Positions 1 through 3,412 of a stretch of DNA of 3,412 bases are shown here, one piece after another. The position numbers and the translations under genes are program-made. The stretch's first letter is position 1, and every line of letters starts with the position of its first letter. Source of the DNA: a virus (taxonomy: Duplodnaviria; Heunggongvirae; Uroviricota; Caudoviricetes). The DNA lies in the IMG/VR virus record IMGVR_UViG_2630968808_000007, positions 1-3,412 of that record. The stretch is one strand, 5' to 3'. Below the pieces are notes generated by a model, which was not told the DNA's origin, made no database searches, and saw only the letters and a program-made list of their open reading frames with translations.

Positions 1-450
1 TCTGCGTTGCCTGTTGGCGTACCAGTTCCTTGGCCTTCAGCTACGCCGCCGACAGGCTGGCTGAAATGCAACGGGGCTGCTTTTTCGGCTGAAGAATACC
101 CGGAACTGGCAAAGGCTTACCCGACAAATAAATTGCCTGATTTACGCGGTGAATTTATTCGTGGCTGGGATGACGGACGTGGTGTGGATGCCGGGCGACA
201 ATTATTATCTTCACAGGGGGATGCAATAAGAAATATTGAGGGATTCGCAGATGGCGGGATCGGCATGTCTTTTGATGCAATCAGAGGGGCTTTTTACGAT
301 GCAGGAACACGATCAGCGACAATGGCGAATAACACAACTGCTATAGGCAAAACCGATGACCTTGGATTCGACGCCTCTCGTGTCGTGCCAACAGCTAATG
401 AAAACCGTCCACGTAACATCGCCTTTAATTATATTGTGAGGGCTGCATAA
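1..450 (+). CDS. Phage tail fibre protein, C-terminal variable receptor-binding domain (5'-truncated by the window edge; Sv-like half of an invertible segment)
   Basis: The frame is open from position 1 to a TAA at 448-450; the ORF track's M at 7 is a TTG, not a real start. The translation carries tail-fibre C-terminal hallmarks (GWLKCNGAAFSAEEYPELAKAY, LPDLRGEFIRGWDDGRGVDAGR, NENRPRNIAFNYIVRA) as in Mu S / P1 S / P2 H distal domains. The stop overlaps the start of the downstream tfa gene (TAATG). Confidence 0.85.
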   Translation, partial: SALPVGVPVPWPSATPPTGWLKCNGAAFSAEEYPELAKAYPTNKLPDLRGEFIRGWDDGRGVDAGRQLLSSQGDAIRNIEGFADGGIGMSFDAIRGAFYDAGTRSATMANNTTAIGKTDDLGFDASRVVPTANENRPRNIAFNYIVRAA

Positions 451-1043
451 TGAAACCTGTTTTTGATGAAAATGGGCTGGCTACAGTACCGGGTAATATG
501 CGTTGTTTTTATTATGAGGCAGTTACGTATGAATATACTGGCTGGTCTGATGAATATATTAATACTGGCGTAAGTATGCCCGCCTGTTCCACTGGTATTG
601 ACCCGGGCGAATGCATTCCGGGGAAAGTGGCAGTATTTACGGGTAAGGGATGGAGCCATGAAGAAGACCACCGCAATGAGACTGTTTACTCAATCGAAAA
701 TGGCGCAGCTGTTACAGTGGATTATATCGGTGCCATCAAAGACGGTTATGTCACGCTTTCACCGTTAACGCCATACGATAAATGGGATGGTGAGAAATGG
801 GTGACGGATACTGAGGCACAGCATAGTGCCGCAGTAGACGCGGCAGAAGCACAGCGCCAGTCGCTGATTGATGCAGCAATGGCTTCCATTAGTCTGATTC
901 AGCTGAAATTACGGGCCGGACGGAAGTTGACGCAGGCAGAAACAACCAGACTTAACGCTGTGCTGGATTACATTGACGCGGTGACGGCAACAGATACCAG
1001 CACCGCGCCGGATGTCATCTGGCCTGAACTGCCGGAGGCGTAG
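450..1043 (+). CDS. Tail fibre assembly protein (Tfa / Mu U-like chaperone)
   Basis: 197-aa ORF with ATG at 450-452 overlapping the upstream stop by 1 nt and a GAGGG Shine-Dalgarno at 438-442. The C-terminus (LNAVLDYIDAVTATDTSTAPDVIWPELP) is the conserved Tfa C-terminal motif. The position immediately after the fibre variable domain is canonical. Confidence 0.85.
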   Translation: MKPVFDENGLATVPGNMRCFYYEAVTYEYTGWSDEYINTGVSMPACSTGIDPGECIPGKVAVFTGKGWSHEEDHRNETVYSIENGAAVTVDYIGAIKDGYVTLSPLTPYDKWDGEKWVTDTEAQHSAAVDAAEAQRQSLIDAAMASISLIQLKLRAGRKLTQAETTRLNAVLDYIDAVTATDTSTAPDVIWPELPEA

Positions 1044-1455
1044 GCCATTCAATATCTGGTGCACTGGAGGTATCAACCAGCTCCAGTGCATCCAGATAAT
1101 CCAGCCACAAATTATATTGCGCCAGTTCCTCACCTTTCAGGCGACCAATCGCCGCTTTACCAGGCCATTGCTTACTGTTTATGTATTCGTTGACCTGATT
1201 AATCAATTGCTGCTTTTTCAGTTCGGCTGCGGCAATTTGTTCCTCATGAGTTGGCGGTGGAATATCAATCCATGCAGGCATTCCGTCGATGACACCTCTG
1301 TATTTTCCTTCTGGTGCTTCCTTCATAAATTCGGCAGCAACAGTGTCGTCAATTTCGATTCCATCATCGGGCCATTCGCCGGATTCCTGATAAGCGATTT
1401 TAAGCTCCACAGGGAAAAACGCATTTTTATCGGCACTGAAAATATATTTCTGCAT
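1015..1455 (-). CDS. Tail fibre assembly protein, alternative copy (Tfa' / U'-like), convergent with the + strand tfa
   Basis: 146-aa ORF on the minus strand with ATG at 1455-1453. Its C-terminus (LWLDYLDALELVDTSSAPDIEWPTPP) is a paralogous Tfa C-terminal motif, while the N-terminal part diverges from the + strand Tfa. It overlaps that gene tail-to-tail over 1015-1043. Confidence 0.85.
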   Translation of the reverse strand: MQKYIFSADKNAFFPVELKIAYQESGEWPDDGIEIDDTVAAEFMKEAPEGKYRGVIDGMPAWIDIPPPTHEEQIAAAELKKQQLINQVNEYINSKQWPGKAAIGRLKGEELAQYNLWLDYLDALELVDTSSAPDIEWPTPPAVQAR

Positions 1456-1457
1456 TT

Positions 1458-1828
1458 CTACCGTCCTATCGAAATATAACTGAATCTGTATTGCTGTGAG
1501 ATATCACTGGTTGCCACACGCCACGCTGAATTACTGATATGTTCAAAATTTACAGACAAAACCTGCGGGGCAGGATTCGACGGGTCTGACTGAACGGCAT
1601 CAGACATAACACTGACTGAAACCATCGGCTGATTAGGGAATGGTATAGGGAAGTGTCCACTGATAAAGCGGGTTGTGTTTCCTGAAAAAGTGCCAAACTG
1701 AACAATATATCCACCTGGTAGCCTGAACCATCCCGAACCAGAAGCGAATGCTCCCATATCCGGTATCTGATTATCTCCTGTGCCCACATTCCGTTTTGCC
1801 GCTTCTCCCAAACCAATGTTTTTGAGAA
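1458..1828 (-). CDS. Alternative tail fibre C-terminal variable cassette (Sv'-like), promoterless and start-less in this orientation; expressed only after inversion fuses it to the constant fibre N-terminus
   Basis: Open frame on the minus strand ending at the stop at 1460-1458, 2 nt upstream of the tfa' start. It has a Gly/Ser-rich fibre-tip-like composition (GAFASGSGWFRLPGGYIVQFGTFSGNT). The frame runs through the crossover site at 1803-1828, which encodes ILKNIGLGE. The ORF-track extension to 1883 begins with TTG and is unlikely to be a real start. Confidence 0.7.
1803..1828. promoter_or_regulatory. Crossover site (gix/hix/cix/pix-type) for the DNA invertase; right boundary of the invertible segment
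   Basis: TTCTCCCAAACCAATGTTTTTGAGAA is a 12-2-12 imperfect palindrome. It matches the recalled hixL sequence TTCTTGAAAACCAAGGTTTTTGATAA at most positions, including the AAACC / GTTT cores and the central AA. It lies 55 bp upstream of the invertase start and inside the N-terminal end of the silent fibre cassette, as in Mu G and P1 C segments. Confidence 0.7.
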
Positions 1829-1882
1829 TGACCATTCTGCTCACTAGTGGCATGCTTTCTGCTTTTTGCAGGGGATAAAACA

Positions 1883-2443
1883 ATGCTTATTGGTTATGTG
1901 AGAGTGTCAACAAATGACCAGAACACCGCATTACAGAGAAATGCGCTCGATAGCGCAGGATGTGAACTGATTTTTGAAGATAAGATAAGCGGAAAGACCT
2001 CGGAGAGGCCGGGGCTCAAAAAGGTACTCCGTATCTTGTCGGAGGGAGACACGCTGGTGGTCTGGAAACTCGATCGGCTCGGTAGAAGCATGCGGCATCT
2101 TGTCGTTCTGGTGGAGGAGCTGCGAGAGCGGGGCATTAATTTTCGCAGCCTGACCGACAGCATAGACACGTCTACGCCGATGGGCCGATTCTTCTTTCAT
2201 GTTATGGGGGCTTTGGCAGAAATGGAAAGAGAGCTCATTGTTGAACGCACCCGGGCGGGTTTAGCAGCTGCGCGAGCAAAAGGGCGGATCGGCGGTCGCA
2301 GGCCCAAATTAACGGATGAGCAATGGGCGCAGGCAGGGAGATTGATCTCAGCAGGGGAATCTCGCCAGCGTGTGGCAATAATTTACGACGTAGGGGTTTC
2401 AACACTCTACCGAAAATTTCCGGTAGGTAGTGGTAAGACATAA
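1883..2443 (+). CDS. Site-specific DNA invertase, small serine recombinase of the Gin/Cin/Pin/Hin family
   Basis: ATG at 1883 preceded by GGGGA (1871-1875). The N-terminus MLIGYVRVSTNDQNT carries the catalytic Ser, and VVWKLDRLGRS, GINFRSLTDSIDTS, MGRFFFHVMGALAEMERELIVERT and the C-terminal HTH (VAIIYDVGVSTLYRKF) are nearly identical to recalled Gin/Pin sequences. The ORF-track start at 1847 is a GTG and is unlikely. Stop TAA at 2441-2443. The exact family member cannot be assigned from memory. Confidence 0.95.
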   Translation: MLIGYVRVSTNDQNTALQRNALDSAGCELIFEDKISGKTSERPGLKKVLRILSEGDTLVVWKLDRLGRSMRHLVVLVEELRERGINFRSLTDSIDTSTPMGRFFFHVMGALAEMERELIVERTRAGLAAARAKGRIGGRRPKLTDEQWAQAGRLISAGESRQRVAIIYDVGVSTLYRKFPVGSGKT

Positions 2444-2804: not shown

Positions 2805-2831
2805 AATACAACTGTATATGTATACAGTCAA
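2803..2831 (-). promoter_or_regulatory. Candidate sigma70 promoter of the DinI-like gene, with the LexA box in its spacer
   Basis: On the minus strand: -35 TTGACT (plus 2831-2826), a 17-nt spacer, and -10 TATTTT (plus 2808-2803). The LexA box at 2812-2827 fills the spacer and overlaps the -35. Confidence 0.5.
2812..2827. promoter_or_regulatory. LexA operator (SOS box)
   Basis: CTGTATATGTATACAG is a perfect CTGT-N8-ACAG palindrome with an AT-rich centre, matching the consensus TACTGTATATATATACAGTA. It lies in the 99-bp divergent intergenic region between the DinI-like gene and the 2853 operon. Confidence 0.85.
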
Positions 2832-2852: not shown

Positions 2853-3092
2853 ATGCCTCGTCAACCGGATATTCGTGCTGCTTTTATTGCGGCCATACAG
2901 CAAAACCCGAAGGGCTATCTCTGTCTGCATACAGACAAGTTCATCGCTGAACTGCAGGAGAGGCACTGGCATTTCAGCCAGGCGGATGCAAATACATGGA
3001 TCGAGCGATACCAGCCGGACTTCGCCGATAAGACGACAAACGGCAGCGAGAACCGGTACTGGATCCTGCGTAACATGGGGAGGGTTTTCTAA
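2853..3092 (+). CDS. Hypothetical 79-aa protein, first gene of a LexA-controlled operon; function unknown
   Basis: ATG at 2853 with a GAGGG Shine-Dalgarno at 2841-2845 (7-nt spacing). Its stop TAA (3090-3092) overlaps the next gene's ATG (TAATG), indicating translational coupling. I recognise no family; the protein is Trp/His-rich and non-hydrophobic. Confidence 0.6.
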   Translation: MPRQPDIRAAFIAAIQQNPKGYLCLHTDKFIAELQERHWHFSQADANTWIERYQPDFADKTTNGSENRYWILRNMGRVF

Positions 3093-3412
3093 TGGGATTT
3101 CCATCGCCAGCCATGGATTACCAGGAGCAGCGCATGACGATAGATGTTATCTGCGGTGTAGACAACAACTGCCGGGTTATTGAAACTTCATGCGGCTGGG
3201 CCGTTATTAACGTCAGTCTGAAGCCAGAAAGAGGGGATACGTTGCTGGTTAGCATGGATGGGAGAAACCAGTTTGTGAAGCTACTGGGTCAGGCACTGAT
3301 AACGGAAGAGGGTGAGGCGATCGAAGGAGAAGCCTTGAATGATGTTACGGTGCACGGCGTTCTTACACATACGCTTAACCAAGTTAAAGACGATAAATCG
3401 CCTGTAATGTAG
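3092..3412 (+). CDS. UmuD'-like protein (LexA/UmuD S24-peptidase C-domain homolog lacking the N-terminal arm; HumD-like), 106 aa
   Basis: ATG at 3092 with GGAGG at 3079-3083 (8-nt spacing). The N-terminus M-GFPSPAMDYQEQR matches UmuD residues directly after the Cys24-Gly25 cleavage site (GFPSPAADYVEQR, recalled). Further similarity: GDTLLV vs GDLLIV, DGRNQFVKLL vs DGEFTVKKLQ, VTVHGVLTHTL vs LDVFGVVIHVV. The stop TAG falls at 3410-3412, the window end. Confidence 0.75.
   Translation: MGFPSPAMDYQEQRMTIDVICGVDNNCRVIETSCGWAVINVSLKPERGDTLLVSMDGRNQFVKLLGQALITEEGEAIEGEALNDVTVHGVLTHTLNQVKDDKSPVM

What the first reader, a model, noticed from the sequence alone, without database searches (positions are those of the whole stretch)
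1803..1828. Crossover site lies inside the silent cassette's reading frame and overlaps a possible invertase promoter
The 26-bp site TTCTCCCAAACCAATGTTTTTGAGAA encodes ILKNIGLGE of the minus-strand cassette, so recombination creates an in-frame fusion; that peptide should then also be encoded at the left site. The right half-site contains TTGAGA (1822-1827), which could serve as a -35 for the invertase with a weak -10 about 17 bp downstream (TAGTGG at 1845-1850). That would allow autoregulation by invertase binding, as described for gin. The promoter assignment is weak.
Basis: partly seen in the sequence, partly recalled or inferred. Interest (0 to 1): 0.45.

Follow-up and report, generated by a model that had tools for sequence, protein, structure and literature searches.

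The report
Tail-fibre switch site beside invertase promoter

Summary
The 26-bp sequence at 1803-1828 is real. It is the invertase-proximal crossover site of an e14 Pin / Mu Gin-type invertible tail-fibre segment.

In-frame fusion is confirmed by natural variants. Phage SKA5 carries the window's minus-strand cassette fused in frame to the constant fibre gene. Six contigs with the identical invertase carry six different cassettes joined exactly at the site.

The left site lies just outside the window. In close relatives it encodes ALENLGLGE, not ILKNIGLGE. Only the inner half-site (GLGE) belongs to the cassette; ILKNI stays beside the invertase.

Its -10 matches 2 of 6 bases and always ends in GG across relatives.

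The conserved block is AATG-N17-TGGCATnnT-..GCTTTT (1827-1866), invariant in 15 diverged lineages including Mu gin and e14 pinE. It reads as a sigma-70 promoter with an extended -10, whose -35 slot (1828-1833) abuts the site. It also reads as a sigma-54 -24/-12 motif (1847-1863). The e14 copy is a published low-stringency sigma-54 ChIP-seq peak.

Autoregulation by invertase binding stays geometrically plausible but is untested. This is a known kind of system, of modest interest.

The parts
1..450 (+). Currently expressed variable C-terminal part of the tail-fibre gene (tail-collar domain). Its constant 5' part and the left crossover site lie upstream of the window (predicted window positions -28 to -3).
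   Evidence: Pfam Collar. Window base 1 corresponds to L001 4001, 3 nt after the left site at L001 3972-3997.
450..1043 (+). Tail-fibre assembly gene serving the expressed cassette
   Evidence: Pfam Caudo_TAP, 1.6e-27
1015..1455 (-). Tail-fibre assembly gene serving the alternative cassette
   Evidence: Pfam Caudo_TAP, 3.4e-35
1458..1814 (-). Alternative (currently unfused) variable cassette with a gp53-like C-terminal domain. It begins with GLGE, encoded by the inner half-site.
   Evidence: Pfam Gp53-like_C. 97% identical to the C-terminal 122 aa of the fused fibre gene of phage SKA5.
1803..1828 (.). Invertase-proximal 26-bp crossover site: inner half-site 1803-1814, central AA 1815-1816 (exchange point), outer half-site 1817-1828
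   Evidence: Sequence identity between contigs that carry different cassettes begins at the inner half-site. T1817 is unique to the window; it is C in 44 of 49 relatives.
1822..1850 (+).
1828..1856 (+). Better sigma-70-type candidate: -35-like ATGACC (1828-1833), 17-nt spacer, extended -10 TG (1848-1849) and hexamer CATGCT (1851-1856). Predicted start about 1862-1865.
   Evidence: Top PWM hit in the interval. T1829, G1830, TGGCAT and T1856 are invariant in 15 spacer families at fixed spacing. The block stays 33-37 nt from the start codon even where the nearest site is 40-73 nt from the block instead of 19, or absent.
1847..1863 (+). Sigma-54 -24/-12-type motif GTGGCATGCTTTCTGCT (GG 1849-1850, GC 1861-1862), overlapping the sigma-70 candidate. 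Predicted start about 1874.
   Evidence: Best sigma-54 PWM hit on either strand of the window: 13.4, against a training minimum of 9.4 and median of 14.1. The collinear e14 motif ATGGCATCATTCCTGCTT is a low-stringency sigma-54 ChIP-seq peak assigned to pinE.
1870..1874 (+). Shine-Dalgarno-like AGGGG, 8 nt before the invertase ATG
   Evidence: Read directly from the sequence. A purine-rich block is conserved at this position (alignment).
1883..2443 (+). Serine DNA invertase, 186 aa, with Ser9
   Evidence: Pfam Resolvase plus HTH_7. 88% identical to PinE, 83% to P7 Cin, 75% to Gin.
1901..1968 (.). Probable Fis-dependent recombinational enhancer inside the 5' end of the invertase gene
   Evidence: Collinear with the enhancer annotated at cin nt 19-86 in phage P7. 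The DNA is conserved across pin, gin and cin. Its centre lies about 96 bp from the site centre.
1458..1853 (-). ORF that starts outside the segment (the ATG is the complement of CAT in TGGCAT) and reads through the site into the cassette: MPLVSRMVILKNIGLGE..., 131 aa
   Evidence: It has the same architecture as e14 stfE/StfE2.

Best explanation
The 26-bp sequence is the right-hand (invertase-proximal) crossover site of an e14 P-segment / Mu G-segment-type invertible tail-fibre region.

**How the switch works (shown and inferred)**
- A serine invertase encoded at 1883-2443 binds as a dimer to this site and to an inverted partner inside the constant part of the fibre gene, just left of the window.
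- With the enhancer in its own 5' coding region, it cuts both sites at the central AA and exchanges the halves.
- The inner half-site (GGT TTG GGA GAA = GLGE) travels with each cassette, and the core sits in codon positions 2-3 at both sites. Either cassette is therefore joined in frame to the constant part.
- The outer half-site (ILKN-I on the minus strand) never enters the fibre protein.
- Shown here: the site, its partner in relatives, the codon phase, and both orientation states in nature.
- Inferred from family membership: Fis dependence and the chemistry.

**Where the promoter is (inferred)**
- The invertase promoter is not TTGAGA/TAGTGG. It is the conserved block 1828-1866.
- That block has a -35-like ATGACC beginning at the last base of the site, a 17-nt spacer, and TG-n-CATGCT.
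- The same bases form a sigma-54 -24/-12 motif.
- My best reading is a weak sigma-70 extended -10 promoter, which keeps the Shine-Dalgarno sequence in the transcript, overlapped by a sigma-54 binding site in this lineage and the e14 lineage.
- Because the -35 slot abuts the site, a bound invertase dimer would be expected to hinder RNA polymerase. This is inference only.
For: **Site and fusion**
- Sequence and frame are as stated.
- The site is unique in the window, with 0 matches expected by chance.
- The partner site in E. coli 1500 ends 3 nt before the point matching window base 1. It reads GCT CTC GAA AAC CTT GGT TTG GGA GAA.
- Phage SKA5 has the same segment (96.6% over window 1-1827) in the flipped state, with the cassette fused in frame.
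- Six contigs with the identical invertase protein and an identical right junction carry six different cassettes. One of them carries the window's plus-strand cassette next to the invertase.
- e14 inversion is experimentally documented (PMC4272514; PMC12529663).

**Invertase family**
- Q150, R153 and L154 correspond to Hin Q151, R154 and L155, the proposed Fis contacts.
- The enhancer region is collinear with the one annotated in P7.

**Promoter**
- In site-anchored conservation across 15 spacer families, A1827-G1830, T1848-T1853, T1856 and T1865-66 are invariant. The 17 nt between them vary.
- The block keeps its distance to the start codon in loci where the site is 40-73 nt further away or absent.
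- It is the top sigma-70 PWM hit in the interval.
- The sigma-54 PWM score is 13.4.
- The e14 motif is a sigma-54 ChIP-seq peak.
Against: - No transcription start is mapped for this locus. The K-12 start-site supplements I could search held nothing for pinE.
- The sigma-70 reading has C, not T, at -12, invariantly. It also leaves G1850, C1851, C1859 and GCTTTT unexplained.
- The sigma-54 reading has a non-T base at -14 in 13 of 15 families. It reaches the training range in only 16 of 56 regions.
- A sigma-54 transcript would start inside the Shine-Dalgarno sequence. No enhancer-binding activator is encoded in the window.
- The pinE peak is low stringency only. It is absent from the 135 high-stringency sites and from the two other RpoN data sets searched.
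- The left site of this exact sequence was not seen; it lies outside the window.
- T1817 next to the core is unique to the window, and its effect on recombination is unknown.
- Autoregulation rests on geometry alone.
Confidence: 0.72

Rival explanations
1. TTGAGA (1822-1827), inside the outer half-site, is the -35 and TAGTGG (1845-1850) is the -10 of the invertase promoter, so invertase binding directly covers the -35.
For: TTGAGA matches TTGACA at 4 of 6 bases and the spacing is 17. Mu gixR has TTGGAT in the same place.
Against: - TAGTGG matches at 2 of 6 bases and has no -7 T. The pair was not called by the scan, and its -10 score is -3.3.
- In relatives the slot always ends in TGG, which is part of the invariant TGGCAT.
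- The -35 slot varies (TATGAA, TAAGAA, TACGAA and others).
- This slot loses to the +6 slot in 49 of 56 regions.
Confidence: 0.06
2. The invertase is transcribed only by sigma-54 RNA polymerase from TGGCAT-N5-CTGCT (1848-1863), activated by a host enhancer-binding protein. Switching frequency is then tied to a host stress or nutrient signal.
For: - The GG..GC geometry is exact.
- The PWM score of 13.4 is within the range of ChIP-verified sites and is the best hit on either strand.
- There is an in-vivo sigma-54 ChIP-seq peak on the collinear e14 pinE motif, listed as an EcoCyc-predicted sigma-54 promoter.
- This reading explains the invariant G1850 and C1851 and the conserved G1861 and C1862.
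Against: - -14 is T in only 2 of 15 families. Most lineages, Mu gin included at 8.8, score below the training minimum.
- The predicted start, about 1874, removes the conserved Shine-Dalgarno sequence.
- There is no activator gene or recognisable upstream activator site. The upstream DNA changes with each inversion.
- The invariant T1829/G1830 at 17-nt spacing and T1856 are unexplained.
- The ChIP peak is low stringency only.
- To my knowledge, G or P inversion has never been reported to need rpoN (my own knowledge, not checked here).
Confidence: 0.15
3. The invariant TGGCAT is conserved as ATG-CCA, the start of a minus-strand gene. That gene reads through the site and expresses whichever cassette lies next to the invertase as a free C-terminal fragment, like e14 StfE/StfE2, which is reported to block phage T2 adsorption.
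For: - The ORF is open and in frame in the window (131 aa), Mu, e14 and most relatives. Gene callers call it in every close contig.
- K-12 stfE is annotated from this ATG.
- A 2025 paper reports that plasmid-expressed StfE2 blocks T2 adsorption.
- A sigma-70-like TTGACA-16-AAGCAT on the minus strand (1912-1883) could drive it.
Against: - About 5 of 15 spacer families have in-frame stops between the ATG and the site. That is what chance predicts for about 8 free codons.
- Conservation falls on third-codon positions (G1830, T1848) while first and second positions vary.
- The block is kept in loci where the ORF runs only 2-27 codons and never reaches a cassette.
- There is no clear Shine-Dalgarno sequence before the ATG.
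- The window's gp53-like domain is unrelated in sequence to that of StfE2.
Confidence: 0.1
4. The invertase has no dedicated promoter here and is made from read-through of upstream or late transcripts. The conserved block then binds some other factor.
For: All promoter candidates are weak, with no 9-of-12 consensus hit.
Against: - The conserved geometry fits promoter elements.
- The block travels with the invertase gene regardless of what lies upstream.
- Upstream DNA is antisense cassette sequence that changes with inversion.
Confidence: 0.07

Closest known systems
E. coli K-12 e14 prophage P segment with PinE (stfP/tfaP/tfaE/stfE/pinE)
   Same: - The gene order is the same, and the closest relative has the same constant fibre part with left-site peptide ALENLGLGE.
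- The inner half-site TTCTCCCAAACC and core AA are identical.
- The invertase is 88% identical.
- The site, 19-nt gap, TGGCATnnT, GCTTTT, Shine-Dalgarno and ATG are collinear.
- The same outside-start ORF crosses the site.
   Different: - The outer half-site differs (TGTTTTTGAGAA against CGTTTATGAAAA), as does the 17-nt spacer.
- The cassettes differ: the window's gp53-like domain has no significant similarity to the StfP C-terminus.
- The downstream genes differ: dinI-like and HumD-like genes instead of mcrA.
- The close relatives sit next to ssrA/smpB rather than icd.
Phage Mu G segment with Gin (gixL/gixR, sis enhancer)
   Same: - The layout is the same: the site sits immediately upstream of the invertase, which is transcribed away from the segment.
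- The crossover lies inside the S gene, with a shared ..N-L-G-L.. peptide.
- The invertase is 75% identical.
- TGGCATGAT sits exactly 19 nt after gixR.
   Different: - The core dinucleotide is GA in Mu and AA here.
- The site matches gixR at 18 of 26 bases.
- The Mu sigma-54 PWM score is only 8.8.
- The cassettes and the segment size differ.
Phage P1/P7 C segment with Cin
   Same: The invertase is 83% identical. An enhancer is annotated in the 5' end of cin and is collinear with window 1901-1968.
   Different: cin lies on the other side and is transcribed toward the segment. cixL overlaps the 3' end of cin, so no promoter-site overlap is possible. There is no TGGCAT block upstream of cin.
Salmonella Hin/hix flagellar phase switch
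   Same: It has 26-bp hix sites and a Fis enhancer about 100 bp from hixL inside the recombinase gene. The Fis-contact residues are conserved (PMC3798978).
   Different: Hin lies inside the invertible segment and flips a promoter rather than swapping coding ends.

Membership tests
Fis/enhancer-dependent DNA invertase systems (Hin/Gin/Cin/Pin) | Small serine recombinase with an N-terminal catalytic domain carrying the active-site Ser, plus a C-terminal HTH | tested here: met
   PF00239 at 8e-51 and PF02796 at 1.9e-14. Ser9 lies in YVRVSTNDQ. Identity is 88% to PinE, 83% to Cin and 75% to Gin.
Fis/enhancer-dependent DNA invertase systems (Hin/Gin/Cin/Pin) | 26-bp imperfect-dyad crossover site with a 2-bp core | tested here: met
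   1803-1828, with half-sites matching at 9 of 12 bases around AA. It is collinear with gixR and the e14 right site.
Fis/enhancer-dependent DNA invertase systems (Hin/Gin/Cin/Pin) | A second site in inverted orientation with the same core, flanking the segment | tested here: inconclusive
   There is no second site in the window; the window starts 3 nt after where it should end. It is present with a matching AA core in E. coli 1500 and in four contigs carrying the identical invertase.
Fis/enhancer-dependent DNA invertase systems (Hin/Gin/Cin/Pin) | Recombinational enhancer with Fis sites near one site, inside the recombinase gene | tested here: inconclusive
   1901-1968 is collinear with, and highly similar to, the enhancer annotated in P7 cin. 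Fis binding cannot be tested here.
Fis/enhancer-dependent DNA invertase systems (Hin/Gin/Cin/Pin) | Invertase residues that contact Fis (Hin Q151, R154, L155) | tested here: met
   Q150, R153 and L154 are invariant in the alignment with PinE, Gin and Cin. Their role is described in PMC3798978.
Fis/enhancer-dependent DNA invertase systems (Hin/Gin/Cin/Pin) | The segment actually inverts | not testable with these tools
   The evidence is indirect. Both orientation states and cassette swaps at the site are seen among natural relatives, and e14 inversion has been measured experimentally.
Sigma-54 (-24/-12) promoter | GG and GC separated by 10 bp within TGGCAC-N5-TTGCW | tested here: met
   TGGCATGCTTTCTGCT at 1848-1863. 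PWM score 13.4, against a training range of 9.4-17.8.
Sigma-54 (-24/-12) promoter | Sigma-54 holoenzyme binds the site | not testable with these tools
   The only evidence is for the collinear e14 pinE motif: a low-stringency ChIP-seq peak that is not among the high-stringency sites.
Sigma-54 (-24/-12) promoter | A cognate enhancer-binding activator | tested here: not met
   None of the eight window ORFs has a sigma-54 activator domain. A host activator cannot be excluded.
Sigma-54 (-24/-12) promoter | The motif is conserved as such across related loci | tested here: not met
   -14 is T in only 2 of 15 families, and only 16 of 56 unique regions score at least 9.4.
Sigma-70 extended -10 promoter | TG at -15/-14, A at -11 and T at -7 | tested here: met
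   TG 1848-1849, A1852 and T1856 are invariant in 15 of 15 families.
Sigma-70 extended -10 promoter | T at -12, and a -35 TTG 17 +/- 1 bp upstream | tested here: inconclusive
   -12 is an invariant C. The -35 slot reads aTG, with T1829 and G1830 invariant at exactly 17-nt spacing.
Sigma-70 extended -10 promoter | A transcript 5' end 6-8 nt after the -10 | not testable with these tools
   No start-site data were found for pinE in the held supplements.

The most novel reading that the evidence does not exclude
Upstream of Pin/Gin-type invertase genes, a weak sigma-70 promoter and a sigma-54 binding site are built from the same invariant bases and begin at the very edge of the crossover site. Three proteins would then compete for about 60 bp: sigma-70 polymerase, sigma-54 polymerase in a closed complex, and the invertase itself. 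The rate of tail-fibre switching, or of anti-phage decoy switching, would be set by host sigma-54/activator status as well as by invertase autoregulation. The same bases also provide the ATG of an ORF that expresses the 'silent' cassette as a free receptor-binding fragment.
Probability: 0.15. Interest if true: 0.6.

Novelty: already known. Interest (0 to 1): 0.3.

Why it matters
In-frame crossover sites inside phage tail-fibre genes are textbook biology (Mu G, P1 C, e14 P). The main result simply places this window in that class.

Two smaller points may be useful.
- Annotation pipelines routinely call the outside-start ORF that crosses the site as a 'gp53-like' or 'tail fiber' gene. That hides the fact that the locus is a two-state switch.
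- An invariant AATG-N17-TGGCATnnT block sits at a fixed distance from the site in 15 diverged lineages, Mu gin included. The e14 copy is bound by sigma-54 in vivo. This gives a concrete and cheap way to test how invertase dosage, and so switching frequency, is set, and whether the invertase autoregulates. I found no answer to that question in the literature available here.

Tried and rejected
- **5'-UTR hairpin.** I looked for a hairpin sequestering the Shine-Dalgarno sequence (CTGC-TTTTT-GCAG, 1861-1873). RNAalifold on 40 unique leaders gave no consensus structure, energy 0.0. Rejected.
- **Published K-12 start-site maps for pinE.** The Cappable-seq and SMRT-Cappable-seq supplements had no entry, and no Rend-seq supplement was held. 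No information.
- **Literature on gin, pin or hin promoters and autoregulation.** The classic papers are not in the held library, and the searches were uninformative.
- **P1/P7 cin as a precedent.** Rejected because cixL is at the 3' end of cin.
- **Other RpoN data sets.** The gSELEX and ChIP-exo supplements have no pinE entry.
- **Finding the exact source contig through the invertase protein.** Six contigs carry the identical protein, but none contains the window exactly.
- **Rfam.** No hits.
- **Other regulatory motifs.** By eye only, with no scan run, I saw no LexA, IHF, Fis or CRP motif in the TGGCAT block. The CTG-N7-CAG at 1860-1872 has the wrong spacing for a LexA box.
Full report
**1. 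The observation**

The window reads TTCTCCCAAACCAATGTTTTTGAGAA at 1803-1828. TTGAGA is at 1822-1827 and TAGTGG at 1845-1850, separated by 17 nt. The minus-strand ORF 1883-1458 translates ...VILKNIGLGEAAKRNVGTG..., so the site encodes ILKNIGLGE in that frame.

The site is an imperfect dyad: TTCTCCCAAACC, then AA, then a half whose reverse complement is TTCTCAAAAACA (9 of 12 bases). It occurs once in the window at up to 3 mismatches, against 0.00 expected. All sequence facts are therefore correct.

The hexamer pair, however, is not above chance. TAGTGG matches TATAAT at 2 of 6 bases and lacks the -7 T. The consensus scan did not list the pair.

**2. What the region is**

The ORFs give the classic layout:
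- a tail-collar fibre C-terminus (1-450, +);
- a fibre assembly gene (450-1043, +);
- a second assembly gene (1015-1455, -);
- a gp53-like fibre C-terminus (1458-about 1814, -);
- the site;
- a 186-aa serine recombinase with Resolvase and HTH_7 domains (1883-2443, +).

The recombinase is 88% identical to e14 PinE, 83% to P7 Cin and 75% to Mu Gin. It has Ser9, and Q150/R153/L154 correspond to the Hin residues proposed to contact Fis. Its first 130 nt are highly conserved at the DNA level with pinE, gin and cin, across the stretch annotated as the enhancer in phage P7.

The site is collinear with Mu gixR (TTCCTGTAAACCGAGGTTTTGGATAA) and with the e14 right site (TTCTCCCAAACCAACGTTTATGAAAA).

**3. 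The left site and the in-frame fusion**

The window holds no partner site.

In the closest complete genome, E. coli strain 1500, window base 1 corresponds to locus position 4001. An inverted partner lies at 3972-3997, inside the constant part of the fibre gene. It reads GCT CTC GAA AAC CTT GGT TTG GGA GAA, which is A L E N L G L G E. The window therefore begins 3 nt after the left site.

The central dinucleotide is AA at the right site. At the left site it is TT on the plus strand, which is the same AA read on the minus strand. At both sites it occupies codon positions 2-3, so exchange preserves the frame.

Nature has already done the experiment.
- Phage SKA5 carries the same segment (96.6% over window 1-1827) in the opposite orientation. 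The window's minus-strand cassette is fused there as ...LENLGLGE|AAKRDVGTGDNQ..., 97% identical over 122 residues.
- Six contigs encode the identical invertase protein, and their sequence from the inner half-site rightwards is identical. To the left they carry six different cassettes, all continuing the frame after GLG(E/D). One of them has the window's plus-strand cassette (GSALPVGVPVPWPSATPPTGWLKCNGAAF...) next to the invertase.

GLGE, the inner half-site, is shared by both sites. ILKN(I) is encoded by the outer half-site, which stays beside the invertase and never becomes part of the fibre. Its likeness to ALEN(L) simply reflects two half-sites bound by the same protein.

T1817, next to the core, is unique to the window. 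It is C in 44 of 49 relatives and G at left sites.

**4. The promoter**

I collected 80 viral-contig loci encoding invertases at least 85% identical to this one, and added Mu, e14, Yersinia phage YP3 and E. coli 1500.

I anchored the alignment on the crossover site only. I then reduced the set to 15 families whose 17-nt spacers are mutually no more than 11 of 17 identical. The conserved columns are:
- A1827, A1828, T1829 and G1830: invariant;
- the next 17 columns: variable;
- T1848, G1849, G1850, C1851, A1852 and T1853: invariant;
- T1856: invariant;
- C1859: 13 of 15;
- G1861 and C1862: 12 of 15 each;
- T1863: 13 of 15, and T1864: 14 of 15;
- T1865 and T1866: invariant.

The TGGCATnnT block stays 33-37 nt from the start codon in loci where the nearest crossover site is 40 or 72-73 nt from the block rather than 19. 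Some of these are multi-site, shufflon-like loci such as L070. The block is also kept where no site is present. It therefore belongs to invertase expression, not to recombination.

*Sigma-70 reading.* The -35 slot is ATGACC (1828-1833), followed by a 17-nt spacer, TG (1848-1849) and the hexamer CATGCT (1851-1856). This is the top candidate in the 1790-1885 interval with a rough PWM: score 6.6, in the top 0.13% of all positions in the window. The slot wins in 49 of 56 unique regions. Its predicted start, about 1863, keeps the conserved Shine-Dalgarno sequence AGGGG (1870-1874) in the transcript.

*Sigma-54 reading.* The same bases form TGGCAT-N5-CTGCT with exact -24/-12 geometry. I built a PWM from 85 published ChIP-seq motifs. 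It scores 1847-1863 at 13.4, the best hit on either strand, against a training minimum of 9.4 and median of 14.1. A score that high appears somewhere in 5.5% of shuffled windows.

Decisively for relevance, the collinear e14 motif ATGGCATCATTCCTGCTT is listed in Bonocora et al. 2015, S2 Table. It is a low-stringency sigma-54 ChIP-seq peak assigned to pinE and flagged as an EcoCyc-predicted sigma-54 promoter. It is not among the 135 high-stringency sites.

*Against a purely sigma-54 promoter:*
- -14 is T in only 2 of 15 families.
- Only 16 of 56 regions reach the training range, and Mu gin scores 8.8.
- The predicted start, about 1874, would remove the Shine-Dalgarno sequence.
- No activator is encoded in the window.

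*Against a purely sigma-70 promoter:* -12 is an invariant C, and G1850, C1851 and GCTTTT are left unexplained.

Neither model explains every invariant. Together they explain nearly all.

I commit to a weak sigma-70 extended -10 promoter as the productive one. In the window and e14 lineages it is overlapped by a sigma-54 binding site.

**5. Autoregulation**

The -35 slot starts at the last base of the site. If the start is near 1863, the whole site occupies roughly -60 to -35. A bound invertase dimer should therefore clash with sigma region 4 and the alpha C-terminal domains.

This is geometry only. I could not find the gin precedent in the held literature. cin is arranged differently.

**6. 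The ORF that crosses the site**

The complement of CAT in TGGCAT is an ATG (1853-1851), in frame with the cassette. It gives MPLVSRMVILKNIGLGE... (131 aa).

K-12 stfE is annotated from the same ATG. Gene callers call this ORF in every close contig. A 2025 paper reports that the e14 version formed after inversion (StfE2) blocks phage T2 adsorption when expressed from a plasmid.

As an explanation for the conservation, it fails:
- About 5 of 15 families have in-frame stops before the site, which is what chance predicts.
- The conserved bases include third-codon positions, while first and second positions vary.
- The block persists in loci where the ORF runs only 2-27 codons.

The ORF may still be expressed. 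A TTGACA-16-AAGCAT pair on the minus strand (1912-1883) is the best promoter-like hit nearby.

**7. Verdict**

This is a member of a long-known kind of system. He mis-assigned which half of the peptide belongs to the cassette, and he placed the promoter hexamers 6 nt too far left.

The modestly new element is the invariant promoter block at the edge of the site, with its dual sigma-70/sigma-54 reading.

Noticed in passing
window 1847-1863 (+); L086 4150-4167 (e14 pinE upstream); L083 4057-4073 (Mu gin upstream): A sigma-54 -24/-12-type motif sits upstream of the invertase genes. The e14 copy is a published low-stringency sigma-54 ChIP-seq peak (Bonocora 2015, S2 Table). The TGGCAT part is invariant in 15 diverged lineages, but the -12 half is good in only a few.
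   Followed up: yes
window 1853-1458 (-): An ORF starting outside the invertible segment reads through the crossover site into the unfused cassette (131 aa). It has the same architecture as e14 stfE/StfE2, which was recently reported to block T2 adsorption. Annotation pipelines call it a separate 'gp53-like' gene.
   Followed up: partly
window 1912-1883 (-): On the minus strand, a perfect -35 TTGACA lies inside the conserved VST codons and putative Fis site. A 16-nt spacer follows, then AAGCAT, which is the complement of the invertase ATGCTT. This is the best sigma-70-like hit near the site (PWM 8.1, top 0.05%). It would transcribe toward the site and the cassette.
   Followed up: no
window 1817: The base next to the central AA is T only in this window. 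It is C in 44 of 49 related right sites and G at left sites. Even contigs with the identical invertase protein have C. The effect on recombination is unknown.
   Followed up: partly
window 2812-2827, between the dinI-like gene (2487-2753, -) and the ORFs at 2853-3092 and 3092-3412 (+): A perfect LexA-box core, CTGTATATGTATACAG, overlaps the strongest promoter-like site in the window (TTGACT-17-TATTTT on the minus strand, 2831-2803). It lies between a DinI-family gene and an operon ending in a HumD/UmuD-like ORF. This looks like an SOS-controlled divergent module.
   Followed up: partly
L070 1205-1234, 2485-2511 and 2860-2886; also L026, L028, L052, L057, L066, L074 and L081: Some related loci have three crossover sites (one left, two right), like a small multi-inversion shufflon. 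In these loci the nearest site is 72-73 nt from the TGGCAT block instead of 19.
   Followed up: partly
L001 7639-9683 and L087/L089-L092 about 5685-7729: In most close relatives, the prophage carrying this module sits next to ssrA (tmRNA) and smpB. This suggests integration at the tmRNA gene, unlike e14, which sits at icd.
   Followed up: no
window 1828 / L002 4828: Nucleotide identity with phage SKA5 stops at window 1827, the outer end of the site. SKA5 has a different invertase on the other side of the segment, with a poorly matching outer half-site (ATATTTGAAAGG). The crossover site thus also acts as a mosaic boundary between phage modules.
   Followed up: partly
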